A DNA stretch of 35,700 bases from positions 1 through 35,700 of the IMG/VR virus record IMGVR_UViG_3300048800_000035. One strand, 5' to 3'. The notes beneath the pieces are model-generated. The model saw only the letters and a program-made list of their open reading frames with translations, was not told the origin of the DNA and made no database searches. Positions 17,412 to 35,174 of the stretch are shown in pieces (position 1 is the stretch's first letter; each line of letters opens with the position of its first letter). The DNA is from a virus. A program made the position numbers and the translations under genes.

Positions 17412-18190
17412 CCGGGGAAGTCAGGACTCTCACCTACCCCGACGAGTGGTTGGCAGATATTGAGGATGCGCTTGCTCATCCCGAAAAGTTTAGGTTTGCG
17501 GGTTACGACGAACTGACTGAACCGGGTGGTATTGCAAGAGAACAAAGGAACATCGTCGTTCCGGCTTTTCTGGCAGAGCAATTTGATCTGTTTCACAGTC
17601 GCGCAATTTCCCATGCTGTTACCAAGGGACAGCATGAGGCCGCAGCGTTGTTGAACTTCTATATTGTGTTGAAATACAGATTGTGGCGCGGCGGAGAGTT
17701 CCACACCAGGCTTGAGTACATCGAGGAAGTAACCAACCAACCCTTCTCGGTAGCCAGTAGCACGATTGACCACTATTGTAGTCACATTGACGACCTGCTT
17801 GAACAAAAGATGCCACTACGGTTGATCGTCAATGCGCTGGGCATGGCTAAGGGGGCGACGGCGCGAGTTGCGAAGATGGGACAAGAAGTTATCCCAAACG
17901 GTAATCGGGAAGGGTTACTAGAAACAATCTCCGACCTGTCACCCGCCGAGGCGCATCGCTTCCTTGACGATCTGGAACAGAAAGACGTGATAGCTGGCAT
18001 CTCTGCTAACTATGTTGAGGATACCAGTCGGTTGGTCTTGGAGGTTCTTGTGACTCACCCAATGCCACAGGGGGCCAAAGACGCATCGCGGGACAGGTAC
18101 TACATCACCTGTCTGGACTGTCCGAAAGAAGTAGCGATGTGGCTCTGTGAGAAAACACACGTCCGGGCGACACGGCGGGAGTTCAAGTAA
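17408..18190 (+). CDS. Hypothetical protein
   Basis: 260 aa; GTGA and TAATG overlaps. Confidence 0.75.
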   Translation: MTGEVRTLTYPDEWLADIEDALAHPEKFRFAGYDELTEPGGIAREQRNIVVPAFLAEQFDLFHSRAISHAVTKGQHEAAALLNFYIVLKYRLWRGGEFHTRLEYIEEVTNQPFSVASSTIDHYCSHIDDLLEQKMPLRLIVNALGMAKGATARVAKMGQEVIPNGNREGLLETISDLSPAEAHRFLDDLEQKDVIAGISANYVEDTSRLVLEVLVTHPMPQGAKDASRDRYYITCLDCPKEVAMWLCEKTHVRATRREFK

Positions 18191-21787: not shown

Positions 21788-21818
21788 TAGAATGGGCGTT
21801 CTATGCTATATTGTGGGC
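21784..21818 (+). promoter_or_regulatory. Sigma70 promoter, leaderless
   Basis: TTGATA-17 nt-TATATT (extended TG)-6 nt-ATG 21819. Confidence 0.75.
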
Positions 21819-22601
21819 ATGGAAAATGACATCATGTATATTTATGCCTTAGTTGATCCGCGAGACAATAAAACAAGATATGTTGGTGTTACCAAGGACC
21901 CCCTAAATAGATTCCGGTCCCACCTGCGAGTTAATCAATCCGTGATGCGTCATGGTAAAAAAAGATGCGAGTGGATTGCGGAACTAAGGGAAGGTAGACT
22001 TGCTCCAAAAATGATTATCCTAGAGGAGTCCGACTGGGATAATTGGCAAAAGGCTGAACAATGGTGGATTCGCCATATGCGCGAGACTGGCTATGATCTT
22101 CTAAATGTCAACAACGGTGGAATCGGTCCAAACTCGATCAGTGATGAAACTAGAGCGAGTATGAGAAAATCACACTTGGGTGTTCACACTAGGCCGATGT
22201 CCGAAACCCATAAGAAGTCTCTTATAGCCAGTCGGAGAAAATTAATACCTACTCAAGTGTCAGAGATAAGAGTCTTGTTGGCAACTCGCGCTGATTTGAA
22301 TACAAAAGAGATTGGGTTGATGTATAACGTTCATTATGGAATAATAAACCAGATAGCATATCACAGGGGTTATTCCGAGTTTACTGATGGCGACGGGTTG
22401 CAAGATGCAATTGATTCCAAGAAACGCTGCAATACCCATCCCCAGAGACGGGGTGATTTAGTTTCGCATGATGTGGTTAGGGAGGTGAGATCATTGGCCG
22501 ATAAGGGGATTAGAATTATAAAAATATCTGAAATGGTTAATATAAAATATTACACAGCATTGAGTATCATTCGTCGCCAAACATATAAGTTGGTGAAGTG
22601 A
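21819..22601 (+). CDS. GIY-YIG homing endonuclease with NUMOD3-like and HTH C-terminal domains
   Basis: YIYALVDPR...RYVGVT...R...H, AEQWWI, LLN..GG, SDETRASMRKSHLG. Confidence 0.9.
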   Translation: MENDIMYIYALVDPRDNKTRYVGVTKDPLNRFRSHLRVNQSVMRHGKKRCEWIAELREGRLAPKMIILEESDWDNWQKAEQWWIRHMRETGYDLLNVNNGGIGPNSISDETRASMRKSHLGVHTRPMSETHKKSLIASRRKLIPTQVSEIRVLLATRADLNTKEIGLMYNVHYGIINQIAYHRGYSEFTDGDGLQDAIDSKKRCNTHPQRRGDLVSHDVVREVRSLADKGIRIIKISEMVNIKYYTALSIIRRQTYKLVK

Positions 22602-23797
22602 AGAAATTTTCTATCTTTTGTGGCCGAGAGCATCATTATAAAAGACTTCACTCGGTAGTATCCGAATTGGAAAACAGGGGATGCGAAACCGGTTTTTATA
22701 TCAGCGACAATGGTTGGAACATTGATCCTGCTAGTGCATATTTGACTAGGTATGGGCAGACATTCAAACACTCGTTGGACTATTATTCACCAGATAGCAC
22801 ACCAGTCGTATCAAACATGGTACAAAAAGCCTTGCTTGGGTTTGGAATACCAGAGTTCGATAATGACTTGTTTGGTTCCATAGACCCCCATTCAATTGTT
22901 TATGCGCTTCGTGAATTCTCTGAATTTCTAGTTGCGACTGACAAGATGCTTGATATAGAAAAACCAGACAGTGTGCTAATTTTGCACTCGAATAATGCGT
23001 GGTGTCGCGCACTTGCCTATCTTTGCTCCGAAAGACAAATTCCAGTTTCGTCTTTTCAAGAGGGGCTACTTCGCAACAGGGATCAAGAGACACAGGGAAA
23101 ACAATCATCGGCGGCCGACTATGTTTCAACACTGTTTGTTTGGTCAGAAGCATCCAGGCAAGCCTACCTTGCCGCTGGCATCCCAGAAGAAAAGATCGTC
23201 GTTACGGGAATGTCACACCTTGACCAGTATCTAACGCTGATTCAAGAGGGAAAGATCAACAAGCCTTACATCAAGGCACAGTTTGGATTCAGGCCTAGCC
23301 AGACGCTTATCACACTCGCCCTGCCACAACTTTCCCGCTTTGACGGCGATGTGAATGTGACGCTTACCCAAATGTCCGAGTGGGCATCTAAGAACTTAGT
23401 CCAACTAGCTATCAGACTCCATCCATTCGAGTCACCAGACTCCGTTATGTCATTGCAAAACGGCATAAAGAATCCGATGGTGAAAGTCATTACGCAGGGA
23501 GAGTTGCCAGAGTTGATTTTAGCGTCGGATGTGGTAGTATCCCAACATTCTACGGCGGCAGTTGAGGCGCTGGCGTTGGGCGTTCCACTGGCGGAGATCG
23601 ACCTGAGTAATTTTGGCGTACTCGAATCTTTGGCCTCTCAGCATGTTGCAATCAGTATCAACAGTGGCGAGTTGGATAAACTTCTCAAGCCGATGGATGG
23701 CATCATTCCGCAGGTGCTTGTGCCGTGGAAAGTAACCAACCTGGGGCAGTTGGACGGACACGCGACGGAACGAATTGTGGATAGGTTGCTGGCGTAA
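22598..23797 (+). CDS. GT-B glycosyltransferase (capsule/sialyltransferase-like; candidate nonulosonate transferase)
   Basis: EKPD, FQEG, FVWSE, IVVTG..HLD, IRLHPFE, SDVVVSQHSTAAVEALALGVP, DGHATERI. Confidence 0.75.
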   Translation: MKKFSIFCGREHHYKRLHSVVSELENRGCETGFYISDNGWNIDPASAYLTRYGQTFKHSLDYYSPDSTPVVSNMVQKALLGFGIPEFDNDLFGSIDPHSIVYALREFSEFLVATDKMLDIEKPDSVLILHSNNAWCRALAYLCSERQIPVSSFQEGLLRNRDQETQGKQSSAADYVSTLFVWSEASRQAYLAAGIPEEKIVVTGMSHLDQYLTLIQEGKINKPYIKAQFGFRPSQTLITLALPQLSRFDGDVNVTLTQMSEWASKNLVQLAIRLHPFESPDSVMSLQNGIKNPMVKVITQGELPELILASDVVVSQHSTAAVEALALGVPLAEIDLSNFGVLESLASQHVAISINSGELDKLLKPMDGIIPQVLVPWKVTNLGQLDGHATERIVDRLLA

Positions 23798-25029
23798 TGC
23801 AGATTAGCCTAATAATTCCAACGCATAATCGAAGCGGGGCGCTCACAAGACATCTTGAAATGCTTGCGCGACAGACACTTGACCCAGCGTTGTTTGAGAT
23901 TGTCGTGGTGCAAGACGGCGTGGATACAATCATGCTCCCCGATATAAAGCGCCGTTCTGAAAAGAACATGCAGTTGAAGGTTGTTGAGTCGGAACACAAG
24001 GGGCCAGCGGCAGCAAGAAACCTCGGCGCGAAGTATGCTGATGGAAACGTGCTATGCTTTGTTGGAGACGACACATTTCCACATCGCAGCTTGCTCTACA
24101 GACATTGGCTACAACATTTCAGCATGGCAAGTAATGGACAAGTAGGGGCGGTACAGGGGTATACGGACTGGTGGGCAGACCTTCCGCCATTAGACTTCGA
24201 GAACTTTTTGTTGGAGTCTGGACTACAAGCAAACTGGTCTAGTCTCAAGAACGACAATGGCACTTGGAAAACAGACGCCAGTGGGTTTTGCCTGACAACT
24301 AACTTCTCGATTGCTAAGTCCGAGTTTGAAAGACTCGGCGGATTCAGCGAAGAGTTTCCCCACGCCGCTTGGGAGGACGTGGAGTTTGGCTACAAGGGAA
24401 CCAAGTTCGGCCTCAAGACTGCTTTTGAACCACAAGCTGTCAATCATCACGCTCACCGGCAGACGTTCGACGGGTATGTTGTAAGGAACCTGAAAGAGGG
24501 GGCGAGTAGGATTATCCTGTCTGGGTTACATCCCGAATCGGCGTGGGGATTGCTTGATCCGAATGCACTTCGGGAAACAAACAGTGGAATGTTTCAAGAG
24601 GCCGTGACTGTGGCACGGGAATTGAACCACGCCCATGCACCTGACATACAGAAACTTCGCAAGGAACGCTGGCAACGAGTCTTACAGTTAGCAAGCCTTG
24701 AAGGGATACGCAGGGGCATTGCCGAGAAGTCTAAGAAGTATCCGGTGTGGCAGGCAATTCAACACCTTCACCTGCAAGAACAGACCCAGCATGTCGTGAC
24801 AACGGCTAGGAACATCGAGACTGGCAATCTTGCTTACGCCGAGACAAGCGCGGAGTGGGCCTTACAAGCCAACATGGACAACTGGGCGCTGTGGATGGTG
24901 AGGGCGGAAGTAAGCAAGGTGATGGGAGATAAAGTCTCGGCGCTGAGATATGCTTCTACTGGAACCAAGTTGGGGCCTGGCGAGGCGTGGCCGATAGAAT
25001 TTATCAAATCAATAAGTGAGGCGCAATGA
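23797..25029 (+). CDS. Family 2 glycosyltransferase with C-terminal TPR-like helices
   Basis: SLIIPTHNR, VVQDG, GPAAARNLGA, FVGDD, GGFSEEF...WEDVEFGY. Confidence 0.92.
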   Translation: MQISLIIPTHNRSGALTRHLEMLARQTLDPALFEIVVVQDGVDTIMLPDIKRRSEKNMQLKVVESEHKGPAAARNLGAKYADGNVLCFVGDDTFPHRSLLYRHWLQHFSMASNGQVGAVQGYTDWWADLPPLDFENFLLESGLQANWSSLKNDNGTWKTDASGFCLTTNFSIAKSEFERLGGFSEEFPHAAWEDVEFGYKGTKFGLKTAFEPQAVNHHAHRQTFDGYVVRNLKEGASRIILSGLHPESAWGLLDPNALRETNSGMFQEAVTVARELNHAHAPDIQKLRKERWQRVLQLASLEGIRRGIAEKSKKYPVWQAIQHLHLQEQTQHVVTTARNIETGNLAYAETSAEWALQANMDNWALWMVRAEVSKVMGDKVSALRYASTGTKLGPGEAWPIEFIKSISEAQ

Positions 25030-25208: not shown

Positions 25209-25762
25209 CTTGCATTGCTGGTATCGTTGAACCAAGTAAACGTGTTGTTTGGATTGGCGGGGACTCAGCAGCCACAAGCGGGTACGATCTCTCCATTGTC
25301 CTCGACACAAAGGTTTTCTACCACACGGGTACTAATTTCATCGTCGGTTGTTGTGGGAGCGTTAGGGCTACCAACGTCATACGTTACAAAATGACGCCTC
25401 CCGAACCAACCACTGACGACGATATGGCCTACATGGTCACTGGGTTTGTAGAGTCACTCAGGGAATCCCTCAAAGCCGCAGGTAACACCGTAAAGAACGA
25501 CGAAATGGAGTGGACTGGCGTTCAACTTCTAGTTGGTTATCACGCGAAGTTGTTTATGATCGACTCGGACTATCAGGTAAGGGAGGTTGTAACAGGTTAC
25601 GACTCTATCGGCGCTGGGGCCGACCTTGCTCTTGGAGCGTTATATGCCACTGCTGGAACGGGCGCCAAGAAGCGTATGACATTAGCAATGGAAGCGGCGG
25701 CGGTTCACAATACGGCTTGCCGACCACCCTTTTCAATATTGCGTGCGCGGTGGAGCGAATGA
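25205..25762 (+). CDS. HslV/proteasome-beta-like Ntn threonine peptidase
   Basis: GTG 25205 gives (M)TCIAG...GGDS...KVF...GCCG...SIGAGADLALGAL; Thr2 would be the nucleophile. Confidence 0.85.
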   Translation: MTCIAGIVEPSKRVVWIGGDSAATSGYDLSIVLDTKVFYHTGTNFIVGCCGSVRATNVIRYKMTPPEPTTDDDMAYMVTGFVESLRESLKAAGNTVKNDEMEWTGVQLLVGYHAKLFMIDSDYQVREVVTGYDSIGAGADLALGALYATAGTGAKKRMTLAMEAAAVHNTACRPPFSILRARWSE

Positions 25763-25770
25763 ATTGGCAC

Positions 25771-25805
25771 TTCCAAACAAGAAAGATTGGGGATACAATG
25801 AAGAA
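25771..25805 (+). promoter_or_regulatory. Sigma70 promoter, leaderless
   Basis: TTCCAA-17 nt-TACAAT-6 nt-ATG 25806. Confidence 0.65.
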
Positions 25806-26906
25806 ATGTTTGAAATTAAGCGCAGAGTAGACAGCAAACTCCCCGACAAAGAAACTCTACAAACCCTATATTGGAGTGAAATGTTGACCATGCGGGAGAT
25901 AGCAGATCGCTATGACACGCATCCCGCTACCGTCTTGTACCATCTTCGCAAGCAAAATATTCAGATAAGAGACAGAAGCGAATCGTCAATAATTGCAACC
26001 AGCAAGGGTAGGCGGTCGCATGGCAAGCGCAAATCCCCGGAGGCTGAATATACCATCGACGGTAAAATAATTTGTGATGCTTGCAAAGTTCCGAAGGACA
26101 AGAAGGAGTTTAGAGATAGGCCCGATACCAAGCGTGGAGTTTCTAGGCGATGTAACAGTTGCGCTACTGCGCGTGGTCAGTTGTGGAAACGCAGAAAGGA
26201 AATGTATCAGCGGGGAGTGGCGCTGTGCGCTAGATGTATTCGATGGTTGCCATTGGCGGAGTTCTCGGCAGACAAGACCAACTATAAATATGGTATTGCT
26301 GCTACTTGTAAAAGGTGTTCTTCTACCAATGCTGAATACCACGACTATCTTGTAGAGCGAGAAACATTGCTATCTTTCGGGATGAAATATTGTCCCGCTT
26401 GTGAACTCGTTTTCAGTGTTGACAAATTTGGGCCTCACTCCGCGTCGACGGATAAACTACAATCTGTTTGCAAAAAGTGTCGTTGGAAAATGAACAATGC
26501 GTTGTATCGACAGAAAAACCCGGAAATAAAGAGGGGCTTTTCTTCTGACGAATTGAAATTGCGGAGGAAGCAAACCGTCAAGCGGTTCTATCAAAATCAC
26601 AAGGAAATAATTCTTGTAAAACACAAATTGCGTATAGCGCGCAAGCGGAGTGGCGACGGCGGTTATACCATTGACCAGTGGACCATGTTGGTTTCTTTTT
26701 ACTCGCCCAATGGGGAATGTGTTTGTTGCAAAAAGAATGAATTGCGTCTCGGCCCGGATCACGTTAAGGCATTGGCGCGAGGCGGAAGTGGTCTTATCTT
26801 TAACATTCAGCCGATGTGTTTACCGTGCAACAATAAAAAACACGTTCGGGAAATAGAATATCGGTTTGACGGTGGCGTATATGCCAGATCGCTGATGGGA
26901 ATATAA
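25806..26906 (+). CDS. HNH endonuclease with N-terminal HTH and three Zn-ribbon repeats
   Basis: TMREIADRY HTH; repeated CxxC...F...CxxC; C-terminal CVCC...DHVKALARGG...NIQPMCLPCNNKK. Confidence 0.9.
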   Translation: MFEIKRRVDSKLPDKETLQTLYWSEMLTMREIADRYDTHPATVLYHLRKQNIQIRDRSESSIIATSKGRRSHGKRKSPEAEYTIDGKIICDACKVPKDKKEFRDRPDTKRGVSRRCNSCATARGQLWKRRKEMYQRGVALCARCIRWLPLAEFSADKTNYKYGIAATCKRCSSTNAEYHDYLVERETLLSFGMKYCPACELVFSVDKFGPHSASTDKLQSVCKKCRWKMNNALYRQKNPEIKRGFSSDELKLRRKQTVKRFYQNHKEIILVKHKLRIARKRSGDGGYTIDQWTMLVSFYSPNGECVCCKKNELRLGPDHVKALARGGSGLIFNIQPMCLPCNNKKHVREIEYRFDGGVYARSLMGI

Positions 26907-28039
26907 TGCAAATTTGCCACATATTTGCTGACGGTTTCAGCGAGCTGAATTCCACGCAGTTCCGTGGGATTATATTCATTGATGCTCTCAATCGGGCAGG
27001 GCACTCCGCCAGTCTTATCGGGGTCGAAAATTGGATGAAGGATACTTGTCGCGAAAAATTGGCAAGTGCCGATCTTATTGTTGTTGAGCGCATCCTTGTA
27101 GAAGAGGCGGTCGAAAGAGCGTCGTTTTGGAAGTCGCGTGGCAAGGCGATTGTTATTGACATTGATGATTCATATTCTCTCCTGCAACCATTTGAAGAAT
27201 CGGGGAACCAGGCCGCTAAATTCTGGAAACTCGGAATGGTTGATGTGAATTACGGCAATGGCATTACCTATTCCAAGAAACTTGCCGTATCCCCACTGGA
27301 TCAATTCCGACAGGGCTTGAAATATTGCACTGGACTGACTTCGCCCTCGCGTATTCTGAACGAAGATTGGAAGATGTATGCCCCCACCTGGGTACTGCCT
27401 AACTATTTGGACTCCCGCCGATATTTGCCCCACAAGAATATAAAAATCAAGTCCAGAGCAGATGAATTGATTATTGGATGGGGCGGGAGCATGTCTCATA
27501 AATTGTCGTTCGAGCGTAGTGGTGTAGCAATCGCCCTGCGCCGTGTCCTAAAGAGGCACAAGAATGTCAAATTCATGCTCTGCGGAGATAAAAGGATTCT
27601 CGACATCGTGAAACTTCCGCCGGAGCAAGTGGTATTCAGGAACTATGTGACCTATCAGGAATGGCCTAAGTCTGCCAAGAGTTTTGACATCGGCCTTGCT
27701 CCATTACAGGGCCGCTATGACTCGTCGCGATCCGAGATCAAGGCCGAGGAATACTCGACACTGGCTATTCCATTTGTGGCTACTGGATGTCCAACCTACG
27801 AACGGTTTGAACAGAAGAACATCGGTCTTTACGTACAGGATTCATTGGAGTATGATGCGGCAACTGTTGAGAAGCGTGCTGTAGAATGGGAACAGAAGTT
27901 GGAAGATATTATTACCCACTACGCCGATTACAAACAAAAGGCGCTTGATGATTCAGTCAACCTTGCGCCGTATTGGTGGGTTGATAATAGGGTCCAAGAT
28001 ATTGTAAAGACATACGAAAGCATCATCGCACATGGCTAG
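26906..28039 (+). CDS. GT-B glycosyltransferase (GT4-like, phage type)
   Basis: IDIDD, VLPNYLD, IGWGGSMSH, FDIGLAPL, SEIKAEEYS...IPFVAT. Confidence 0.88.
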   Translation: MQICHIFADGFSELNSTQFRGIIFIDALNRAGHSASLIGVENWMKDTCREKLASADLIVVERILVEEAVERASFWKSRGKAIVIDIDDSYSLLQPFEESGNQAAKFWKLGMVDVNYGNGITYSKKLAVSPLDQFRQGLKYCTGLTSPSRILNEDWKMYAPTWVLPNYLDSRRYLPHKNIKIKSRADELIIGWGGSMSHKLSFERSGVAIALRRVLKRHKNVKFMLCGDKRILDIVKLPPEQVVFRNYVTYQEWPKSAKSFDIGLAPLQGRYDSSRSEIKAEEYSTLAIPFVATGCPTYERFEQKNIGLYVQDSLEYDAATVEKRAVEWEQKLEDIITHYADYKQKALDDSVNLAPYWWVDNRVQDIVKTYESIIAHG

Positions 28040-28985
28040 TATATTGTTGGTCGGCGGAAGCGGCTTCATTGGTAGCCACATTTCACGCTACTTGCTTGAC
28101 AATCCCGAATATGATCGAGTTGTTATCCTATCAAGGGACTGGCACAAACAACTGGCCCTGCGGAAATCTCTAGGTAATCCAGATAAGTTCCGCTGGTTCA
28201 TTGGGGACATTCGGGACAAAGATAGACTCACAAGAGCCTTCAACGGTATTGATGTAATTGTACACGCCGGGGCGATTAAGGATCAAGTGTCGTCAGCTTA
28301 CAATCCTCGTGAAACGATGCTCACAAATGTGGTTGGAACACAGAATGTTATTGACGCGGCGATTGATTGTGGCGTGAAAAAAGTCTTGTTTATTAGCAGT
28401 GATAAGGGCACTGCACCCATTTCTTGCTACGGACACAGTAAGGCTATGGGAGAATCCCTGATTGTTGCTGCCAACACCTATTCACCTAATGGAACCAGGT
28501 TTGCTTCTTGCAGATATGGCAACGTGGTAAATTCCGCATCAAGTGTTTTGCCAATCTTTAGGCAACAGCGCGAAACAGGTACTCTCTCAATTACCGATCC
28601 GCGCTCAACAAGGTTCTGGATTACGCCGGAGCAAGCAGTTTTGTTGATATTTAAAAGCCTTGCAGAGATGCTTGGCGGCGAGGTGTTCGTTCCAAAACTT
28701 CCAGCATCACTGATTATTGACCTCGCTACAGCGGTTGCGCCAGAGGCCAAGATTGATATTATCGGCTTGCGCGTGGCTGAAAAGATTCACGAAATCATGG
28801 TCAACAATGTCGAGGCGGGCAGGACGCAAGACGTTGGATGGGGATACCGCATTGAGCCGGAGTTCAAGTTTTGGGATTCCACCGTAGCCTATCCGTCTGG
28901 TTCCCCTGTGCCGTGGGACTGGACTTACTCCTCTGCCTCGGCCACTCGCCTCACCGTGGAACAACTTCGGGCGATGATCGAATGA
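28032..28985 (+). CDS. pseB: UDP-GlcNAc 4,6-dehydratase (PseB/FlaA1-like)
   Basis: GGSGFIG, LSRD..KQ, IGDIRD, SSDK, YGHSK, RYGNV, TRFWIT, GGEVFVPKLP, EKIHE. Confidence 0.88.
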   Translation: MASILLVGGSGFIGSHISRYLLDNPEYDRVVILSRDWHKQLALRKSLGNPDKFRWFIGDIRDKDRLTRAFNGIDVIVHAGAIKDQVSSAYNPRETMLTNVVGTQNVIDAAIDCGVKKVLFISSDKGTAPISCYGHSKAMGESLIVAANTYSPNGTRFASCRYGNVVNSASSVLPIFRQQRETGTLSITDPRSTRFWITPEQAVLLIFKSLAEMLGGEVFVPKLPASLIIDLATAVAPEAKIDIIGLRVAEKIHEIMVNNVEAGRTQDVGWGYRIEPEFKFWDSTVAYPSGSPVPWDWTYSSASATRLTVEQLRAMIE

Positions 28986-29353
28986 TGAACGCCTTTGAAC
29001 TTACAGCGCAAGAACTTGGAATTACCGTGGCCGAGGTAGAGTGGGCCGTAAAGATTTCAGTTGTACATCGTAAGCATCGCAAGCAACTTAGGGAGAGACA
29101 GCGCATGGCAAATGCTGAGGCGCTGAATAAACACGAATTGGCAGAGGCTAAAGCGAAATATCCCAATCAGTGTTTCTGCATTGAGGAAGGACTTGATCCC
29201 AAGCACGATTGGAATAGCGATAAACTTATCCGCTACGACAAGAAGCGGAGATATACATATCTTGGATTCTCGACCGAGGAGTTCTATGATGATCCGATAT
29301 ATACATGCTCCACTTGCGGCAAGGAATGGCGCATTCGGATAGCAATAGCATGA
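28982..29353 (+). CDS. Hypothetical protein with C-terminal Zn ribbon
   Basis: CFC...YTCSTCGKEW; ATGA overlaps. Confidence 0.7.
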   Translation: MMNAFELTAQELGITVAEVEWAVKISVVHRKHRKQLRERQRMANAEALNKHELAEAKAKYPNQCFCIEEGLDPKHDWNSDKLIRYDKKRRYTYLGFSTEEFYDDPIYTCSTCGKEWRIRIAIA

Positions 29354-29859
29354 TTCACAACTTCATCTGGTGGTTTGACAACACGGCTGACGCTTACACT
29401 CAATCTGTCATCGGAAACTTTACCGCCGATCTGATTCTATTCAGTCTGCCTGCGCTGTGGGTGTTCTTGAGGACTATACGGCAGGGCCGTATCTTGAAGA
29501 ACTTCGGTCGTGAGATGAAGGTAAGTCCAGACGGGCAGGCGGCGGTAAATGCTGTTGACGGTGAGATTCTTATGGCCGGCAAGGGCGGTATTGAGAACCT
29601 CACTCATACTAAGGCGGTCGAAGAAAACCCCCTGTTTGCTTCCAATTCAAAGTGGATCGCCTTTCAGAGGCAGGTTGAGGGGGCGTGGGAAGTGTGGGCA
29701 ATCGACGTTGAAACTCGCAAGACCGTTAGCCTTGGAACGGTTGCCGGAGACAAGCGCCGAATGATTGAGTGGCAACCGAACAACGATCTTGTTATTCAGA
29801 TGGGCGGAACGTACCTAACGGTTTACCAGCAAGAGATTGAAAAGAGACTCAAGCAATAG
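29350..29859 (+). CDS. Membrane-anchored protein with TolB/PD40-like beta-propeller blades
   Basis: Hydrophobic helix LILFSLPALWVFL; VSPDGQ, NPLFASNSKWIAF, WEVWAID. Confidence 0.7.
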   Translation: MIHNFIWWFDNTADAYTQSVIGNFTADLILFSLPALWVFLRTIRQGRILKNFGREMKVSPDGQAAVNAVDGEILMAGKGGIENLTHTKAVEENPLFASNSKWIAFQRQVEGAWEVWAIDVETRKTVSLGTVAGDKRRMIEWQPNNDLVIQMGGTYLTVYQQEIEKRLKQ

Positions 29860-29892: not shown

Positions 29893-30975
29893 ATGCAAGG
29901 TGTAATACCGTACTCGACGAGTTTTATCACCGATGAGGACAAGAAGGCGGTGCTGGCCGTTCTGGATTCCAACTGGCTCACTCGCGGCAAGTTGACCAAG
30001 GAACTTGAGGCCAAACTCTGTGAACTGACGGGCAAGAAACATGCCGTAATGGTCAACAATGGGACTACTGCATTGTTGGCGGCGGTTGAGGCAACGCATA
30101 CCTTTGATGTTTATACTCCTGTTCTGACGTTTTCGGCTGTAGCAAATGCAGCGGAGATGGCATCTACCCAGCCTGAAATACATTTCCACGATGTTTGTGA
30201 AGATACGCTTTGTGTAGATTGGAACCAGTCCGCAGGCATTGATGGAACAATAGTCGCAATGGATTATGCGGGCTATCCGAGTCTTAGATCGTGGCCTCCG
30301 CATTATATGGGTGATATTGTTTTGGATGCCGCTCACAGTATCGGGGCAACGATCAACGGTGAACCCAATACTAAGTTTGCCAACATTGCCACTTATTCCT
30401 TCCATCCTACTAAAACGGTAACGTCCGCTGAGGGTGGGGCCATCGTTTGCGATAGTGATAGTATCTATGAGGAATTACTTCTTCTCCGGAACAACGGTAT
30501 TGACATTAAGACTGGATTGCGCGTTACAACCGGGTTGAACTTGCATTGCGACGAACTCTCCTGTGCCCTACTCCTGTCGCAACTAACCCGACTGAAATCC
30601 AACATTGCCCGCAAGCATGAAATCGCCAAGATGTATATGGATAGGTGGAAAGATGATCTGCGCCTCATTCTTCCTGTCTACGATGAGGGACATGCCTTCC
30701 ACCTGTATCCCGTTCGACTGTCTACCGCCGTGAATTGCACCGTTGAGGAATTTCGTGCCAAGTTATTGACTTACGGCGTTGCTAGCCAAAGACATTACCG
30801 ATTGTTGAGCAACATGCCTATCTATGCCTACATGAATTTGGACGGTTGTTACCCCGTAGCAGAACGCGCTTACGAAAGGCTTGTGTCAATCCCCATGTAC
30901 GCGGGCTTAGACGATAACCAAGTTCGCATTGTTATGAACGCAGTAGATGGGAGCTTAGATGCCTACTCAAGATAG
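29893..30975 (+). CDS. pseC: DegT/DnrJ-family PLP sugar aminotransferase (PseC-like)
   Basis: WLTRG, NNGTTAL, LDAAHSIGA, YSFHPTKTVTSAEGG, HLYPV, SIPMY. Confidence 0.85.
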   Translation: MQGVIPYSTSFITDEDKKAVLAVLDSNWLTRGKLTKELEAKLCELTGKKHAVMVNNGTTALLAAVEATHTFDVYTPVLTFSAVANAAEMASTQPEIHFHDVCEDTLCVDWNQSAGIDGTIVAMDYAGYPSLRSWPPHYMGDIVLDAAHSIGATINGEPNTKFANIATYSFHPTKTVTSAEGGAIVCDSDSIYEELLLLRNNGIDIKTGLRVTTGLNLHCDELSCALLLSQLTRLKSNIARKHEIAKMYMDRWKDDLRLILPVYDEGHAFHLYPVRLSTAVNCTVEEFRAKLLTYGVASQRHYRLLSNMPIYAYMNLDGCYPVAERAYERLVSIPMYAGLDDNQVRIVMNAVDGSLDAYSR

Positions 30976-31171
30976 CAGTTGGTTTGTTGCAACGTGGAAA
31001 AGCGATAGTTGGGGGGAAGTGTCTGAATCGTATCTATACAAGGAACAGGCACTCAACTGGCTTGACAACAAGAAGTCGGCGGAGAAGGTAGTTGACTCTG
31101 CTATTCATACTTTTCCAAACTTTCGGACGGCGCAGTATTACCGTAAGCACGGGGAATATTACCACCAATGA
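30959..31171 (+). CDS. Hypothetical protein
   Basis: GGGAG RBS; ATGA overlap with the next gene. Confidence 0.6.
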   Translation: MPTQDSSWFVATWKSDSWGEVSESYLYKEQALNWLDNKKSAEKVVDSAIHTFPNFRTAQYYRKHGEYYHQ

Positions 31172-31866
31172 ATGTAGCGATCATTCCGGCCAGGGGAAAC
31201 AGTAAGTCGGTCGCCCGGAAGAATCTTCGCCCACTGGCGGGCAAGCCCCTTTTACAATGGACGATTGACGCCGCCAAAGAAGCCAACGTATTCGATCACA
31301 TCGTTCTTACTTCCGAGGATGACGAGATATTGAAACTTGGTTTGCGAAACAATATTATGACGCTGGTTCGCCAACCCTGGCTAAGTCAGGATTTCGTGCA
31401 ATCATCGGAGGTTGCGCTTGACGCTTTACGCCAGTTGCAGTTGGCTAATATCTATCCTGATATAGTGACGATCTTGCAACCAACCTCTCCGTTTAGAACG
31501 GCGGAAGATATTGGCGGTGCCGTAGACCTATTCAATAACTGGGACTTGCCGATTGAGAAACGCGGAACCATCATCTCGGCGTATAAAAGCGCCAAGTATC
31601 ATTGGCACGACGAGGGTTGGAACGACAAGCCTCTGTACCACAATCCAGAAAAGAGGTTGGGCCGACAGTGGGAATCTGATATGGGTGTATTTGTGGAACA
31701 GGGGGCAGTCTACATCGTTTCTGCTAATCGTTTCGGCAGAGAAGGTCAGTACAGACTTCCGCCGTACCAGATTTTTGAGATGTCGGAAAGTCATTCGATT
31801 GACCTAGACTCGCCAGAGGAGTTTGAACAAGCGGAACACATGCTTGAAAGAGGACTTGTGAAGTGA
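31168..31866 (+). CDS. CMP-nonulosonic acid synthetase (NeuA/PseF family cytidylyltransferase)
   Basis: IIPARGNSK...KNLRPLAGKPL, LQPTSPFR, RQ, GAVY, SIDLDSPEEF. Confidence 0.93.
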   Translation: MNVAIIPARGNSKSVARKNLRPLAGKPLLQWTIDAAKEANVFDHIVLTSEDDEILKLGLRNNIMTLVRQPWLSQDFVQSSEVALDALRQLQLANIYPDIVTILQPTSPFRTAEDIGGAVDLFNNWDLPIEKRGTIISAYKSAKYHWHDEGWNDKPLYHNPEKRLGRQWESDMGVFVEQGAVYIVSANRFGREGQYRLPPYQIFEMSESHSIDLDSPEEFEQAEHMLERGLVK

Positions 31867-32540
31867 AGATAGCCCTGCTTGCTAAACCGTCCCACGAGTC
31901 AAGTCAGTTGTATCAATACCTGCTTGGGCGAGGGCATGTGGTTTGGCAGACAGATGAGAAAGTCACGGCGAAAGAACTGTCGAGATACGACATTGGGGTC
32001 AGCTGGTTCTACAAATTCATACTTCGCCAACCAGAACTTGATGCGGTGAAACTGGGTATAGCCAACAATCACATAGGTTTTTTGCCCGAGGGCAGAGGGG
32101 CCAACCCGAACATCTGGCCGATAGCGCATCGTATTCAAGCGGGTGTCACGCTTCACTACATGACGGCAGGTGTAGATGAGGGGCCAATCATCGCAAGACA
32201 ACCAATCGAGATAGAGGCAATCGACACTTCCAAGACGCTCTACAACAAACTTGTAGAGGCGCAGTACAATCTATTTCTTATGTGGTGGCCGTCGATTGAA
32301 CTTCTAGGCAACCAAGGACTTCGAGCACCATCTTTCGCCCAGGAAGAGGGAGCTTGGCATACTTACAGGGTCAAAGATACAGAGTGGTTTGACGACCTTG
32401 ATAATCGGTACGGCGACTCTGCAAGGCTTATGATCGACCAACTCAGGGCCAGAACCTTTCCGCCGTACAATGGTTGCTACTTTCGCGATCCAAAGACTGG
32501 CAAGAAGGTCTTTGTGGACGTGTCATTACGCTATGAATAA
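31863..32540 (+). CDS. Sugar-nucleotide N-formyltransferase
   Basis: NNHIGFLPEGRGANP, GVTLHYM..GVDEGPI, LRARTFPPY.G.YF. Confidence 0.9.
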   Translation: MKIALLAKPSHESSQLYQYLLGRGHVVWQTDEKVTAKELSRYDIGVSWFYKFILRQPELDAVKLGIANNHIGFLPEGRGANPNIWPIAHRIQAGVTLHYMTAGVDEGPIIARQPIEIEAIDTSKTLYNKLVEAQYNLFLMWWPSIELLGNQGLRAPSFAQEEGAWHTYRVKDTEWFDDLDNRYGDSARLMIDQLRARTFPPYNGCYFRDPKTGKKVFVDVSLRYE

Positions 32541-33243
32541 TCCGATTTTGTACCTCCACGCCGACTTGAACTGTGGACTGGGCCACAGAAGGCGTCTAGA
32601 AACGCTACAGACGGCTTGGGACGCGCCTAGCGAGTGGTTTGGTACAGATATACCCTCTGTTGCTGGAATTTGCGTGGTGGACGATTATTGCTTCACTGTA
32701 CAATCGTTCCAAGAATTGAAGGCAAACGGGCATTTGGTTGCCTACTTTACCGAGTTCGCGAACGATTATCCAGTGGATATTCTAATCAATCAAAACATCG
32801 GCGCGGAGAAGTTGAAGTACAATGCGCCTATTCAGTTACTCGGCACTCGTTTCTTCATGCTCCGACAGGAATATTTGACTGTCCAGAAGTACGGGCATGG
32901 TGCGATCTTCGATGCTGATTCGGTAGATAGAAAACTGTCACCGCTTGAGTTTGGTCAGACGATGGCGGAAGCTAAGGCTATCATTTGTTCCGCAGGGATT
33001 ACCGCTTACGAGGCACTGTATCTTGAGAAGCCCTTACTGCTGAGAATGTCGGCAGAGAACCAGCGCCGAACGTATGAGGGGTTGATTGATAACGGCTACG
33101 CAATACCATATAATGACATCGCAATAGAAAGGTTGAGTTACGGATGGATTCCAACAGTGAAGTCGGGAAGAAACCTCGTGGACGGCCTCGGGCCGAGTCG
33201 CGTTTGCCAAGCACTCCGCCTGATGTGGGAACAGACCCACTAA
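32533..33243 (+). CDS. pseG: PseG/SpsG-like UDP-sugar hydrolase (compact)
   Basis: AD...GLGH..R, VVDDY, DILINQN, LLG..F.MLR.E, SAGITAYE, AENQ, VDGLGPSRV; start revised to ATG 32533. Confidence 0.8.
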   Translation: MNNPILYLHADLNCGLGHRRRLETLQTAWDAPSEWFGTDIPSVAGICVVDDYCFTVQSFQELKANGHLVAYFTEFANDYPVDILINQNIGAEKLKYNAPIQLLGTRFFMLRQEYLTVQKYGHGAIFDADSVDRKLSPLEFGQTMAEAKAIICSAGITAYEALYLEKPLLLRMSAENQRRTYEGLIDNGYAIPYNDIAIERLSYGWIPTVKSGRNLVDGLGPSRVCQALRLMWEQTH

Positions 33244-33425
33244 TCTACGGTGTGTGGTTGAACAAGCATCTTGATTGGTTGAAGTACACCAGCGGCGAGA
33301 TTGTCTATTCCGATTACCTCGGATTGGCAAGGGCGGAATTGACCTCTTACGAGCGGAACGGCGGAAGTCATGCTAAGGTTATGATTATCGGGGCAGACGG
33401 TGAGCCGCAGGAACTAAATGACTAA
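33225..33425 (+). CDS. Hypothetical protein
   Basis: Fills the gap between pseG and the first synthase; start uncertain. Confidence 0.5.
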   Translation: MGTDPLIYGVWLNKHLDWLKYTSGEIVYSDYLGLARAELTSYERNGGSHAKVMIIGADGEPQELND

Positions 33426-34245
33426 AACATTAATCATCGCTGAAATTGGATCAAGCCACAATTCTTCATTCGACAGGGCTGTTGCTCTGATTGATGCTGC
33501 CGCTGACGCCGGGGCCGACTACGCCAAGTTCCAACTATTCACTGGCGATGATCTTTGGAGTCGAGAGCCGGAACTGACCAACACCCGCAAGGTCGCTTTG
33601 CCCGAGGCGTGGATTCCCAAACTCATGCAACGGTGTGTTGACAAGAAAATTGCCTTTCTGTGTACGCCGTTCTCGCCTCATGCGGTTGAGGTATTGCGGA
33701 AGAACGGCGCAACGTCCTACAAGATTTCGTCGGGTGACATTACCTATCGGCCCCTACTCGAAGCGGTGGCGGAAACCCATCGGCTAGTCTACCTATCGGT
33801 TGGAGCATCCACCTTTGAGGAAATAGACGCCGCACTTGCAATTCTAAAGAACGCCGAGGACGTGGTAATTCTGCATTGTGTTCCAGAATACCCCGCCACG
33901 CCTGCTACTGCTAATATGCGCCGTATCCTAGACCTCATTGAACGCTACAAGTTGGGCAAGAACATTGGAGTTGGTTTGTCGAGCCACCTTCGCGAGTGGT
34001 GGGTTGACGTTGCTGCGGTTCCATTCGGACTCACTTGCATCGAGAAGCACATTGATACGGTCGGAAAGACAGGGCCGGAAGGGGGGCATTCACTTGACCC
34101 ATTTGAGTTTACGCAGTTTGTTACGGCGGTTCGGGAAGTTGAACAAGCGATGGAAGTCCATAAAGAGTTCACTGAGGGCGAAGTCTATGCGCGTCTCAAC
34201 TATCGCAGGAATCCGACATATTGGACTCGTCCACTCCAATCTTGA
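33418..34245 (+). CDS. NeuB/PseI-family nonulosonic acid synthase 1 (no SAF domain)
   Basis: IIAEIGSSH, KFQ, CTPFS, YKISSGDIT, LHCVPEYP, GLSSH, IEKH, HSLDP. Confidence 0.92.
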   Translation: MTKTLIIAEIGSSHNSSFDRAVALIDAAADAGADYAKFQLFTGDDLWSREPELTNTRKVALPEAWIPKLMQRCVDKKIAFLCTPFSPHAVEVLRKNGATSYKISSGDITYRPLLEAVAETHRLVYLSVGASTFEEIDAALAILKNAEDVVILHCVPEYPATPATANMRRILDLIERYKLGKNIGVGLSSHLREWWVDVAAVPFGLTCIEKHIDTVGKTGPEGGHSLDPFEFTQFVTAVREVEQAMEVHKEFTEGEVYARLNYRRNPTYWTRPLQS

Positions 34246-34337: not shown

Positions 34338-35174
34338 ATGACAAAACTTTGGGCCGAGATTGGGATAAACCACCAAGGCAGCGTTGAGATTGCTATAAAG
34401 ATGATTGACGCCGCCCAACGCGCCGGGGCTGATTTAGTCAAGTTCCAAATGCGCGTTCCAGAACTTGCCGTTCCAAAATCACAGTGGGATAAGCCGAAGG
34501 TTTGGCAAGGCCAAGAAATGACTTACCTAGAATACAAGAAGAAGTTGGAACTATCTCGCGACGATTACTATCGCATAGATCGACATTGCGCCGAGGTGGG
34601 GATAAATTGGACCGCCTCGGTATGGGATTATGAGAGCGCGGTGTTCCTCGTATCCTTTGCCGACCGCATCCCGTTTATCAAAATCCCCAGTGCCAAGTTG
34701 ACTGACCACGTGCTTTTGAAACAAGTATCTCGCGGGTTCAATATGCCGATTGTTCTAAGCACCGGAATGTCAACCGTGGATGAGATTGAGGCAGCAATTG
34801 ATGTAATTCCGTCCGAGAACCTTGTAATGCTCCTGCATTGCAACAGTTCATATCCAGCGTGTGATGCAGAGCAGAACCTAAGCGTGATTGAAACACTCAG
34901 ACAAGACTTCAACTTTCCAGTTGGGTTTTCGTCCCACCACAAGTCGCCATTCCCAGCCCTGTATGCGGCGGCGAGATATGGCGTTCCCGCTGTAGAAACG
35001 CATTTCACATTAGATAGAAGTTGGGAGGGAACCGATCATGCCAGTTCTCTTGAATCTGATGGACTCGAATTACTCGCTAGGGAGTTTCTGCGCATCCCAA
35101 TTGTTCTGGGCGACGGGCAAAAAGTCGTTTACGATTCAGAACTTCCGAGCAGGCTCAAGTTGAGAGGCTACTAA
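34338..35174 (+). CDS. NeuB-family nonulosonic acid synthase 2 (no SAF domain)
   Basis: AEIGINHQG, KFQ, ASVWD, KIPSA, LSTGMS, LHCNSSYP, GFSSH, HFTLDR..EGTDH. Confidence 0.93.
   Translation: MTKLWAEIGINHQGSVEIAIKMIDAAQRAGADLVKFQMRVPELAVPKSQWDKPKVWQGQEMTYLEYKKKLELSRDDYYRIDRHCAEVGINWTASVWDYESAVFLVSFADRIPFIKIPSAKLTDHVLLKQVSRGFNMPIVLSTGMSTVDEIEAAIDVIPSENLVMLLHCNSSYPACDAEQNLSVIETLRQDFNFPVGFSSHHKSPFPALYAAARYGVPAVETHFTLDRSWEGTDHASSLESDGLELLAREFLRIPIVLGDGQKVVYDSELPSRLKLRGY

What the first reader, a model, noticed from the sequence alone, without database searches (positions are those of the whole stretch)
31168..33243. Formyltransferase replaces the PseH acetyltransferase: predicted 7-N-formyl nonulosonic acid
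Seen: no GNAT or hexapeptide acetyltransferase in the cluster, while an N10-formyl-THF-type formyltransferase is wedged between the CMP-synthetase and pseG with overlapping ends. Established: the C4 amine made by PseC becomes N7 of pseudaminic acid, and 7-N-formyl Pse occurs in some bacterial glycans. Inference: the product is CMP-Pse5Ac7Fo or an isomer.
Basis: partly seen in the sequence, partly recalled or inferred. Interest (0 to 1): 0.7.

Follow-up and report, generated by a model that had tools for sequence, protein, structure and literature searches.

The report
Phage PseJ-like sugar formyltransferase gene
A 100-kb tailed phage carries its own genes for a sialic-acid-like sugar (pseudaminic acid type) in which a formyltransferase takes the place of the usual acetyltransferase, so the sugar is probably N-formylated; this chemistry is already known from bacteria (enzyme PseJ), so the case is a new, phage-borne member of a known kind.

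Summary
Three overlapping + strand genes encode a CMP-nonulosonate synthetase (31168-31866), a sugar N-formyltransferase (31863-32540) and a shrunken PseG hydrolase (32533-33243). They sit between PseB- and PseC-like genes and two NeuB-type synthases. The window is the first 35.7 kb of a 99,998-bp tailed-phage genome. No GNAT, PseH or hexapeptide acetyltransferase was found anywhere in it.

The reading (7-N-formyl pseudaminic-type sugar) is the best-supported one.
- The catalytic Asn-His-Asp triad is intact.
- The closest solved relatives are 4-amino-6-deoxyhexose N-formyltransferases, including PseJ, the characterised enzyme of the Pse5Ac7Fo pathway.
- The phage encodes only one sugar aminotransferase, so the PseC product is the only phage-made amine available.

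The arrangement is not new. Of the 80 nearest cellular homologues, 69 lie beside PseG and/or a NeuB-type synthase, usually as a contiguous pseB-pseC-pseF-pseG-FT-pseI operon with no room for PseH. Eleven related phage cassettes all keep the formyltransferase: nine have no GNAT, two have one beside it, none has a GNAT alone.

Caveats: the host is unknown and could supply PseH, the stereochemistry is inferred, and formyltransferase and PseH-like domains coexist or are fused in a minority of cellular relatives. Earlier notes of this scan record similar clusters on other DNA.

Verdict: new member of a known kind, of modest interest.

The parts
28032..28985 (+). PseB-like UDP-GlcNAc 4,6-dehydratase (inverting type), step 1
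   Evidence: Polysacc_synt_2 E 2e-67. PseB TIGR03589 321 bits (cut-off 407.75), far above FnlA (183 bits) and LegB (54 bits). Best PDB hit is H. pylori FlaA1/PseB 2gn4, E 1.7e-64, against PglF/WlaL at about 1e-21. It is the only Epimerase-family SDR in the phage genome.
29893..30975 (+). PseC-like PLP aminotransferase; makes the 4-amino sugar that the formyltransferase would acylate
   Evidence: DegT_DnrJ_EryC1 E 3.7e-64. PseC TIGR03588 229.5 bits (cut-off 423.5), above LegC at 120 bits. Best PDB hit is H. pylori PseC 2fn6, E 7e-33. It is the only DegT-family gene in the 100-kb genome.
31168..31866 (+). PseF-like CMP-nonulosonate synthetase
   Evidence: CTP_transf_3 E 1.7e-15. PseF TIGR03584 88 bits, E 5.6e-25, full-length match below the cut-off. 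PDB hits are CMP-Neu5Ac synthetases, E 7e-21.
31863..32540 (+). Sugar 4-N-formyltransferase (PseJ-like catalytic core plus VioF-type C-terminal dimerisation domain), the subject of the finding
   Evidence: Formyl_trans_N and N_formyltrans_C, both above cut-off. Asn68-His70-Asp105 are invariant in 32 homologues. Best PDB sequence hit is PseJ 6ci2/6ci4, E 4e-20. AF2 pLDDT is 96.7; Foldseek top hits are Rv3404c, PseJ (TM by target 0.80-0.82), WbtJ and VioF. The start codon is supported by homologues beginning MKIALLAK, MRIALLAK and MNIALLCK.
32533..33243 (+). Compact PseG-like UDP-sugar hydrolase (236 aa)
   Evidence: TIGR03590 E 4.6e-15. hhalign to a bona fide 353-aa PseG gives probability 98.5% end to end, with two large deletions and a conserved GxGHxxR motif. 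AF2 pLDDT is 92.4; top Foldseek hits are PseG 3hbm/3hbn. No PDB hit by sequence alone.
33418..34245 (+). NeuB-family nonulosonate synthase 1 (no SAF domain)
   Evidence: NeuB Pfam E 8.4e-54. NeuB_NnaB 195 bits against PseI 159 bits, both below cut-off. PDB hits are SpsE, NeuB and PseI 8h2c.
34338..35174 (+). NeuB-family nonulosonate synthase 2 (no SAF domain)
   Evidence: NeuB Pfam E 8.7e-63. NeuB_NnaB 217 bits against PseI 140 bits, both below cut-off. PDB hits are as for synthase 1.

Best explanation
The phage encodes a self-contained route from host UDP-GlcNAc to a CMP-activated 5-acetamido-7-formamido nonulosonic acid, most likely CMP-Pse5Ac7Fo. The steps are inferred from homology and gene order. 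The PseB-like dehydratase and PseC-like aminotransferase make UDP-4-amino-4,6-dideoxy-beta-L-AltNAc. The formyltransferase (31863-32540) transfers formyl from host N10-formyl-tetrahydrofolate to that C4 amine, the step PseH does with acetyl-CoA in the canonical pathway and PseJ does in Anoxybacillus. The compact PseG removes UDP. A NeuB-type synthase condenses the hexose with PEP, so hexose N4 becomes N7. The PseF-like enzyme then activates the product with CTP. The 4- and 8-base overlaps suggest that the three central genes are translationally coupled. Shown here: gene identities, an intact catalytic triad, absence of any phage acetyltransferase, and conservation of the cassette. Inferred: substrate, donor, stereochemistry and product.
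For: 1. Enzyme class. Pfam Formyl_trans_N and N_formyltrans_C are above cut-off. The Asn-His-Asp triad is invariant. The best PDB sequence match is PseJ at E 4e-20, followed by the dTDP-Qui4N formyltransferases WbtJ, Rv3404c and VioF. The AF2 model (pLDDT 96.7) matches Rv3404c and PseJ best, including PseJ soaked with UDP-4-amino-4,6-dideoxy-L-AltNAc.
2. Only one possible phage-made acceptor. The genome has one DegT aminotransferase, one SDR and no RmlA-type nucleotidyltransferase.
3. No alternative acyltransferase and no deacetylase or deformylase in 100 kb.
4. Pse-type flanking enzymes. PseB-like is closest to H. pylori PseB, PseC-like to H. pylori PseC, and PseG-like to C. jejuni PseG by fold.
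5. Orthology by context. Of the 80 nearest cellular homologues, 69 lie within 6 kb of PseG and/or a NeuB-type synthase, 57 have both, and 35 have all five pse genes. In L006 the neighbours pass the NCBIfam equivalog cut-offs: PseB 506 bits, PseC 482, PseG 229, PseI 510. The formyltransferase there sits between pseG and pseI with no PseH. In five such genomes no PseH above cut-off exists anywhere.
6. Phage cassette conservation. In 11 related phage contexts the formyltransferase is always present next to PseF. Nine have no GNAT, and two of the nine were found through PseG rather than the formyltransferase. The window's enzyme sits in an SH-aLRT 99 clade of compact formyltransferases; every member with known context is a phage cassette.
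7. Downstream tolerance. PseF converts Pse5Ac7Fo as efficiently as Pse5Ac7Ac, with kcat/Km 4.85 against 4.71 s-1 mM-1 (PMC11040635). Pse5Ac7Fo occurs naturally in Pseudoalteromonas distincta (PMC3210612).
Against: No biochemistry exists for this protein or any member of its phage clade.

The host is unknown and may supply PseH or a competing Pse5Ac7Ac pathway.

All pathway enzymes except the formyltransferase domains score below the NCBIfam equivalog cut-offs.

Both synthases score better on the NeuB/LegI model than on the PseI model and lack the SAF domain, so the stereochemistry of the final sugar is open.

Two related phage contexts carry a GNAT right beside the formyltransferase. Cellular homologues include FT-GNAT, GNAT-FT and PseG-GNAT-FT fusions. 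Loci L079 and L080 also hold a bona fide PseH. So the two acyltransferases are not strictly alternatives, and the formyltransferase may have a second or different acceptor in some lineages.

Unlike PseJ, the enzyme carries the C-terminal domain typical of dTDP-sugar formyltransferases.
Confidence: 0.72

Rival explanations
1. Same formylation step, but the final sugar is not pseudaminic acid. It would be a stereoisomer or a pair of isomers (for example 8-epi, legionaminic-like or another 5,7-diamino nonulosonate), because the two SAF-less NeuB paralogues are not PseI orthologues.
For: Both synthases score higher on NeuB_NnaB (195 and 217 bits) than on PseI (159 and 140 bits), all below cut-off. 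Two divergent synthases are kept in all phage relatives. Phage-borne enzymes that change Pse stereochemistry are known (epaA/epaB, PMC12053666).
Against: The configuration of the hexose is set by PseB, PseC and PseG. All three are closest to Pse enzymes and not to LegB, LegC or LegG. No NeuC/LegG-type hydrolysing 2-epimerase is convincingly present: the 399-aa protein at 22598-23797 fits a BFO_1060/TIGR04396 glycosyltransferase better than WecB. One relative (L008) carries the Pse-associated methylase TIGR03587 above cut-off.
Confidence: 0.15
2. The host supplies PseH (or the phage acts in a host already making Pse5Ac7Ac). The formyltransferase then adds diversity or acts on another acceptor, so the phage product is a mixture or is not 7-N-formylated.
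For: Formyltransferase and PseH-like GNATs coexist in L003 and the P0018 contig, in L079 and L080 with PseH above cut-off, and as fused proteins. The host genome cannot be examined.
Against: The formyltransferase is the invariant partner of PseF in all 11 phage cassettes, while a GNAT is present in only 2 and never alone. The phage has no deacetylase that could free a second amine. Five cellular genomes with the same operon have no PseH above cut-off. The L003 GNAT does not match the PseH model at E <= 0.01.
Confidence: 0.1
3. The formyltransferase-like protein is catalytically dead, or it serves an unrelated one-carbon or tRNA function and lies in the cluster by chance.
For: The N-terminal subdomain is about 26 residues shorter than in the bacterial homologues. 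The Pfam match starts at profile position 80 of 181.
Against: The catalytic triad and the RGANPNIW motif are conserved. The compact N-terminus has the same size as in active PseJ: query 27-169 aligns to PseJ 24-164. The AF2 model is very confident, pLDDT 96.7. The position next to PseF is conserved in all relatives, and the gene ends overlap those of its neighbours.
Confidence: 0.03

Closest known systems
PseJ of Anoxybacillus kamchatkensis (PDB 6ci2, 6ci4, 6ci5, 6edk; Reimer et al. 2018, ACS Chem Biol 13:3161, as cited in PMC11040635)
   Same: Both are N10-formyl-THF-type formyltransferases sitting in a pse gene set in the role of PseH. PseJ is the best PDB sequence match (E 4e-20), with shared NxH...D catalytic residues, a shared G-A-(N/D)-P-N-(I/L)-W motif and the same compact N-terminal subdomain. 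The predicted product is the same, Pse5Ac7Fo.
   Different: Identity by Foldseek is only about 28-29%. PseJ (192-217 aa) lacks the C-terminal N_formyltrans_C dimerisation domain that the phage enzyme has. The phage enzyme belongs to a separate, phage-associated clade and is untested.
dTDP-4-amino-4,6-dideoxyglucose N-formyltransferases (VioF 4yfv, WbtJ 4nv1, Rv3404c 4pzu/5vyq)
   Same: Same two-domain architecture, Formyl_trans_N plus N_formyltrans_C. NCBIfam NF005755 is the best family hit (92 bits, below cut-off). These are the top structural matches. They likewise acylate the C4 amine of a 4-amino-4,6-dideoxyhexose nucleotide.
   Different: Those enzymes work on dTDP-Qui4N made by RmlA, RmlB and VioA. 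The phage has no RmlA-type nucleotidyltransferase, and its only dehydratase and aminotransferase are PseB- and PseC-like.
Canonical CMP-Pse5Ac7Ac pathway (PseB, PseC, PseH, PseG, PseI, PseF of C. jejuni and H. pylori)
   Same: Five of the six activities are represented by recognisable homologues in one co-directional cluster.
   Different: There is no PseH. PseG is cut down to 236 aa. There are two synthases, both without a SAF domain and not PseI equivalogs. Everything is encoded by a tailed phage and interspersed with homing endonucleases and small ORFs.
Cellular pseB-pseC-pseF-pseG-FT-pseI operons (for example the Ardenticatenaceae MAG GCA_015075765.1, locus L006)
   Same: The same formyltransferase family (42% identity) occupies the acyltransferase slot of a bona fide pse operon with no PseH.
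   Different: The cellular versions have full-size PseG, a single PseI with SAF and a longer formyltransferase N-terminus. They sit beside Wzz, flippase and polymerase genes for surface polysaccharide.

Membership tests
PseJ-type UDP-4-amino-4,6-dideoxy-L-AltNAc N-formyltransferase | Formyl_trans_N fold with the catalytic Asn-His-Asp triad | tested here: met
   Pfam PF00551 50.4 bits, above the 26.1 cut-off. N68, H70 and D105 are invariant in 32 homologues. AF2 pLDDT is 96.7, with formyltransferase folds as top hits.
PseJ-type UDP-4-amino-4,6-dideoxy-L-AltNAc N-formyltransferase | Encoded within a pse gene set (PseB, PseC, PseG, synthase, PseF) that lacks PseH | tested here: met
   Cluster composition. 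No PseH, GNAT or hexapeptide gene in the whole phage genome. The host genome was not available.
PseJ-type UDP-4-amino-4,6-dideoxy-L-AltNAc N-formyltransferase | Formyl transfer from N10-formyl-THF to the C4 amine of the UDP-sugar | not testable with these tools
   This needs an enzyme assay. Only homology and context are available.
PseJ-type UDP-4-amino-4,6-dideoxy-L-AltNAc N-formyltransferase | Single-domain architecture of PseJ (about 190-217 aa, no C-terminal domain) | tested here: not met
   The window protein carries N_formyltrans_C at residues 186-224 (49.5 bits). The PseJ alignment covers only query residues 27-169.
dTDP-Qui4N N-formyltransferases (VioF/WbtJ/Rv3404c) | Two-domain architecture with the N_formyltrans_C dimerisation domain | tested here: met
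   and structural matches.
dTDP-Qui4N N-formyltransferases (VioF/WbtJ/Rv3404c) | Score above the NCBIfam NF005755 equivalog cut-off, and a dTDP-sugar context (RmlA, RmlB, VioA) | tested here: not met
   92.2 bits against a cut-off of 238. No NTP_transferase (RmlA) in the genome. The only dehydratase and aminotransferase are PseB- and PseC-like.
Canonical pseudaminic acid pathway (PseBCHGIF) | PseB, PseC, PseG and PseF orthologues | tested here: inconclusive
   Each protein's best NCBIfam hit is the corresponding Pse model, but all fall below the equivalog cut-offs: 321/408, 229/424, 56/154 and 88/206 bits. Best PDB relatives are PseB, PseC and PseG.
Canonical pseudaminic acid pathway (PseBCHGIF) | PseH N-acetyltransferase | tested here: not met
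Canonical pseudaminic acid pathway (PseBCHGIF) | PseI-type synthase (NeuB plus SAF domains, TIGR03586) | tested here: not met
   Both synthases lack SAF. They score 159 and 140 bits against a cut-off of 340, lower than on the NeuB_NnaB model.

The most novel reading that the evidence does not exclude
This phage lineage has fixed N-formylation rather than N-acetylation as the signature of its own nonulosonate. The virus would then make a CMP-sugar chemically distinct from the host's Pse5Ac7Ac and, through its own BFO_1060/TIGR04396-like transferases, place it on virion or host-surface targets. That would be a virus-specific 'formyl-sialome' that could escape Pse-recognising phages, lectins or defences. 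The minimised PseG and the two SAF-less synthases would be co-adapted to the formyl substrate.
Probability: 0.12. Interest if true: 0.7.

Novelty: new member of a known kind. Interest (0 to 1): 0.35.

Why it matters
If confirmed, this phage cassette would be a compact, self-contained source of enzymes for CMP-Pse5Ac7Fo: a 225-aa formyltransferase and a 236-aa PseG. That sugar is currently reached mainly by chemical synthesis (PMC11040635). It would also show that viruses choose the N-acyl decoration of the sialic-acid-like sugars they make. That choice bears on how phage particles or infected cells are recognised. The comparative result has annotation value: the formyltransferase-for-PseH swap is common across many bacterial and archaeal phyla, yet the operons are still usually read as Pse5Ac7Ac pathways. 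As biochemistry, the step is already established by PseJ.

Tried and rejected
- Direct scan of IMG/VR with the single formyltransferase protein found no relatives. A scan with an alignment found six more distant viral loci.
- The GenBank phage collection holds no close relative. The best hits are 30% identity in unannotated 735-kb megaphage records; these were not followed up.
- The first genome-contig scan, using a 32-sequence alignment, failed for lack of a conserved stretch. A 7-sequence alignment worked.
- The PseG-like protein has no PDB match by sequence, so fold and profile comparison were needed.
- The genome search 'relatives' is not available for virus records, so no host could be inferred.
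- The PseJ paper itself is not held. Its content is cited only through PMC11040635 and the PDB titles.
- Four literature searches for a published phage-encoded pseudaminic acid pathway found none. The nearest is prophage epaA/epaB, which epimerises Pse (PMC12053666).
- Transient formylation in the ArnA/ArnD manner, or an acetyl-to-formyl swap at N5, was considered and set aside. No Polysacc_deac_1 or PIG-L deacetylase is encoded.
- The 399-aa protein at 22598-23797 was considered as a NeuC/LegG-type epimerase (weak Epimerase_2 hit). It fits a BFO_1060/TIGR04396 glycosyltransferase better.
- The small conserved ORFs flanking the genes have no Pfam match and are not hidden SAF or acetyltransferase domains.
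Full report
**What is there**

The window is the first 35.7 kb of a 99,998-bp IMG/VR virus record that CheckV rates 99% complete. It is a tailed phage. It has an HK97-type major head protein, a portal and a tape-measure protein, three tRNAs, and replication and RNA-repair genes (RNA ligase, helicase, RtcB).

A run of co-directional + strand genes makes up the sugar cluster:
- BFO_1060/TIGR04396-like GT-B proteins (18190-19476 and 22598-23797)
- GIY-YIG nuclease (21792-22601)
- GT2 (23797-25029)
- HNH nuclease (25743-26906)
- GT1-like protein (26906-28039)
- PseB-like dehydratase (28032-28985)
- a small PD40-like protein (29305-29859)
- PseC-like aminotransferase (29893-30975)
- a 70-aa ORF (30959-31171)
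- PseF-like cytidylyltransferase (31168-31866)
- formyltransferase (31863-32540)
- PseG-like hydrolase (32533-33243)
- a small conserved ORF (33243-33425)
- two NeuB-family synthases (33418-34245 and 34338-35174)
- RtcB (from 35174)

G+C content is even across the region, about 0.48-0.52.

**Checking the observation**

- The formyltransferase GTG at 31863 overlaps the PseF stop (GTGA).
- The PseG ATG at 32533 overlaps the formyltransferase stop (ATGAATAA).
- The longer ORF from 32470 is not supported. Called homologues are 236-253 aa and start like MNNPILYLHAD.

The absence of an acetyltransferase holds beyond the cluster, for the whole phage genome.
- The PseH, Acetyltransf_1 and Hexapep models find nothing at E <= 1, while the control genomes match all three models.
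- My own six-frame scan also found nothing better than E 0.3. It used two bona fide PseH proteins, three other GNATs, an HMM of GNAT domains fused to formyltransferases, and a hexapeptide transferase.

**What the formyltransferase is**

- *Domains.* It has Formyl_trans_N plus the N_formyltrans_C dimerisation domain, both above the Pfam cut-offs.
- *Active site.* Asn68, His70 and Asp105 are invariant in 32 homologues, together with an LPxxRGAxPN(I/V)W motif.
- *Closest solved relative by sequence.* This is PseJ of Anoxybacillus kamchatkensis (6ci2/6ci4, E 4e-20). It is followed by WbtJ, Rv3404c and VioF, which formylate dTDP-4-amino-4,6-dideoxyglucose.
- *Fold.* An AlphaFold model (pLDDT 96.7) matches Rv3404c and PseJ best (TM by target 0.80-0.82). 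The PseJ entries include one soaked with UDP-4-amino-4,6-dideoxy-L-AltNAc.
- *Size.* The phage protein lacks about 26 residues of the N-terminal subdomain present in bacterial homologues. PseJ is equally compact there: query 27-169 aligns to PseJ 24-164.

PMC11040635 credits PseJ (Reimer et al. 2018) with completing the Pse5Ac7Fo pathway. It also shows that PseF uses Pse5Ac7Fo as well as it uses Pse5Ac7Ac. Pse5Ac7Fo occurs naturally, for example in Pseudoalteromonas distincta KMM 638 (PMC3210612).

**What it can act on**

The phage genome has one DegT-family aminotransferase, one Epimerase-family SDR and no RmlA-type nucleotidyltransferase. The only phage-made amino sugar nucleotide is therefore the product of the PseB- and PseC-like pair.
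- The PseB-like protein is closest to H. pylori FlaA1/PseB (E 1.7e-64, against about 1e-21 for PglF).
- The PseC-like protein is closest to H. pylori PseC.
- On the NCBIfam models both score best as PseB and PseC, ahead of LegB, LegC and FnlA, though below the equivalog cut-offs.

The next gene is a reduced PseG.
- It aligns end to end with a bona fide 353-aa PseG (hhalign probability 98.5%), with two large deletions and a conserved GxGHxxR motif.
- Its model (pLDDT 92.4) has C. jejuni PseG as its best structural match.

There is no Polysacc_deac_1 or PIG-L deacetylase. So neither an acetyl-to-formyl swap at the other nitrogen nor an ArnD-style removal of the formyl group is encoded.

**Comparative evidence from cellular genomes**

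I fetched the 80 nearest homologues in GTDB species representatives (31-44% identity). They span Acidobacteriota, Chloroflexota, Verrucomicrobiota, Planctomycetota, Armatimonadota, Myxococcota, Gemmatimonadota, Elusimicrobiota, CPR, haloarchaea and Methanomassiliicoccales.

| Genes within 6 kb of the formyltransferase | Loci (of 80) |
|---|---|
| PseG and/or a NeuB-type synthase | 69 |
| both PseG and a NeuB-type synthase | 57 |
| all five pse genes | 35 |

- The typical layout is a contiguous pseB-pseC-pseF-pseG-FT-pseI operon that leaves no room for PseH (for example L029, L025, L044, L050).
- In L006 (Ardenticatenaceae) the neighbours pass the equivalog cut-offs: PseB 506 bits, PseC 482, PseG 229, PseI 510.
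- In five such genomes no PseH above cut-off exists anywhere.

So the formyltransferase-for-PseH swap is widespread rather than peculiar to this phage. The swap is not absolute:
- Eleven of the 69 loci have a GNAT that matches my HMM at 25 bits or more. These include L080 with PseH above cut-off and two fusion loci, L091 and L096.
- L079 also holds a bona fide PseH. Its formyltransferase scored below my ORF threshold, so it is not counted among the 69.
- Representative-library homologues include FT-GNAT, GNAT-FT, PseG-GNAT-FT and PseF-FT fusions.

**Comparative evidence from phages**

Eleven related phage contexts were examined.

| Context | Layout around the formyltransferase |
|---|---|
| window | PseF-FT-PseG |
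| L002 (92-kb contig) | same synteny as the window |
| L100 | PseF-FT-PseG-like |
| L102 (found through PseG) | PseF-FT-PseG-like |
| L103 (found through PseG) | PseF-FT-PseG-like |
| L010 | PseF-FT-PseG-like |
| L008 | FT, Pse-associated methylase (TIGR03587, 125 bits against a cut-off of 112), PseG |
| L009 | FT, then NUDIX hydrolase in place of PseG |
| L101 | FT, then DUF5662 |
| L003 (also L004, L005) | FT, then a generic GNAT that does not match PseH at E <= 0.01, then PseG |
| P0018 contig | Acetyltransf_3 GNAT beside FT |

In all eleven the formyltransferase is present. Nine have no GNAT, two have one, and none has a GNAT without the formyltransferase.

In a maximum-likelihood tree the window's enzyme falls in an SH-aLRT 99 clade of 21 compact enzymes. 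Every member of that clade with known context is a phage cassette. The clade is sister to another IMG/VR sequence and then to the cellular pse-operon clade. Six further IMG/VR loci, one of them a giant-virus MAG, carry more distant formyltransferases in nonulosonate clusters.

**Most likely mechanism**

The inferred steps are:
1. PseB-like and PseC-like enzymes convert UDP-GlcNAc to UDP-4-amino-4,6-dideoxy-L-AltNAc.
2. The formyltransferase, using host N10-formyl-THF, makes the 4-formamido sugar.
3. The compact PseG releases 2-acetamido-4-formamido-2,4,6-trideoxy-L-altrose.
4. A NeuB paralogue condenses it with PEP to give Pse5Ac7Fo.
5. The PseF-like enzyme makes CMP-Pse5Ac7Fo.

I put 0.72 on N7-formylation of a Pse-type sugar. 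The main residual doubts are:
- the stereochemistry, since the synthases are not PseI equivalogs and score higher on the NeuB/LegI model;
- possible host-supplied acetylation;
- what the formyltransferase does where a GNAT coexists with it.

**Comparison with the known, and novelty**

Functionally this is the PseJ route. Architecturally the enzyme is nearer the VioF/WbtJ/Rv3404c class, because it keeps the C-terminal domain that PseJ lacks. It therefore works like PseJ without being a strict PseJ orthologue.

No paper in the held library describes a phage-encoded pseudaminic acid pathway. The nearest is the prophage pair epaA/epaB, which epimerises Pse (PMC12053666).

Earlier notes of this scan already record formyltransferase-bearing nonulosonate cassettes in other phages, and PseH-less operons in bacteria and archaea, with PseJ as the closest known enzyme. 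Notes on the surrounding pathway, the GT-B proteins and the two synthases of this same window exist as separate findings.

For the specific claim examined here the verdict is: observation confirmed, interpretation supported, chemistry already known, new member in a phage setting. Interest is modest (0.35).

Noticed in passing
L009:7696-8524 (related phage contig SRR29078153_40600): In this relative the slot after the formyltransferase holds a NUDIX hydrolase (153 aa) plus a cREC_REC-like protein instead of the PseG-like gene. This may be a non-orthologous replacement of the UDP-sugar hydrolase step.
   Followed up: partly
L008:4859-5446: A pseudaminic-acid-associated methylase (TIGR03587, 125 bits against a cut-off of 112) is inserted between the formyltransferase and the PseG-like gene in another phage relative. 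This suggests further tailoring of the sugar.
   Followed up: partly
P0020, P0031, P0035, P0038, P0062, P0069, P0087, P0091, P0123, P0124 (representative-library homologues): There are recurrent gene fusions of this formyltransferase family with PseH-like GNAT domains in either order, a PseG-GNAT-FT triple fusion and a PseF-FT fusion. Formyl- and acetyltransferase domains therefore often work side by side, and what the pair does is unexplained.
   Followed up: partly
window 33243-33425 and 30959-31171; also L002:11390-11635, L009:8521-8775, L100:7957-8199: Small conserved ORFs of about 60-85 aa with no Pfam match sit between PseG and the first synthase, and between PseC and PseF, in nearly all phage relatives. 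Their function is unknown.
   Followed up: partly
window 29305-29859; L003:5825-6283; L101:3163-3642: A small PD40/Tricorn_N-like beta-propeller fragment (150-185 aa) is conserved inside the phage cassette, usually between PseB and PseC. No role in the known pathway is apparent.
   Followed up: no
window 21792-22601, 25743-26906; L003:8342-9124; L009:2525-3550; L100:2572-3390: Homing-endonuclease-type genes (GIY-YIG, HNH, LAGLIDADG) are inserted at different positions of the sugar cassette in different phages.
   Followed up: no
window 18190-19476 and 22598-23797: Two GT-B proteins match the BFO_1060-family glycosyltransferase model and TIGR04396 (surface carbohydrate biosynthesis protein) below cut-off. 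From memory, not checked here, BFO_1060 is tied to a Tannerella nonulosonate transferase, which would make these candidate transferases for the CMP-sugar.
   Followed up: partly
L052:5558-8707, L074:5545-8631, L023:6676-8727, L053:6702-8750: In Acidobacteriota and Elusimicrobiota the PseF domain of the formyltransferase-bearing operon is fused to a class-III aminotransferase, and sometimes also to a Gfo/Idh/MocA oxidoreductase. This points to further unexplored elaboration of the sugar.
   Followed up: no
L033, L038, L049, L062, L081, L083, L084, L087 (haloarchaeal genomes): Cultured haloarchaea (Halorubrum, Haloarcula, Natronomonas and others) carry PseF-PseG-FT next to divergently oriented NeuB, PseC-like and PseB-like genes. 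They are tractable organisms in which the formyl pathway could be tested.
   Followed up: no
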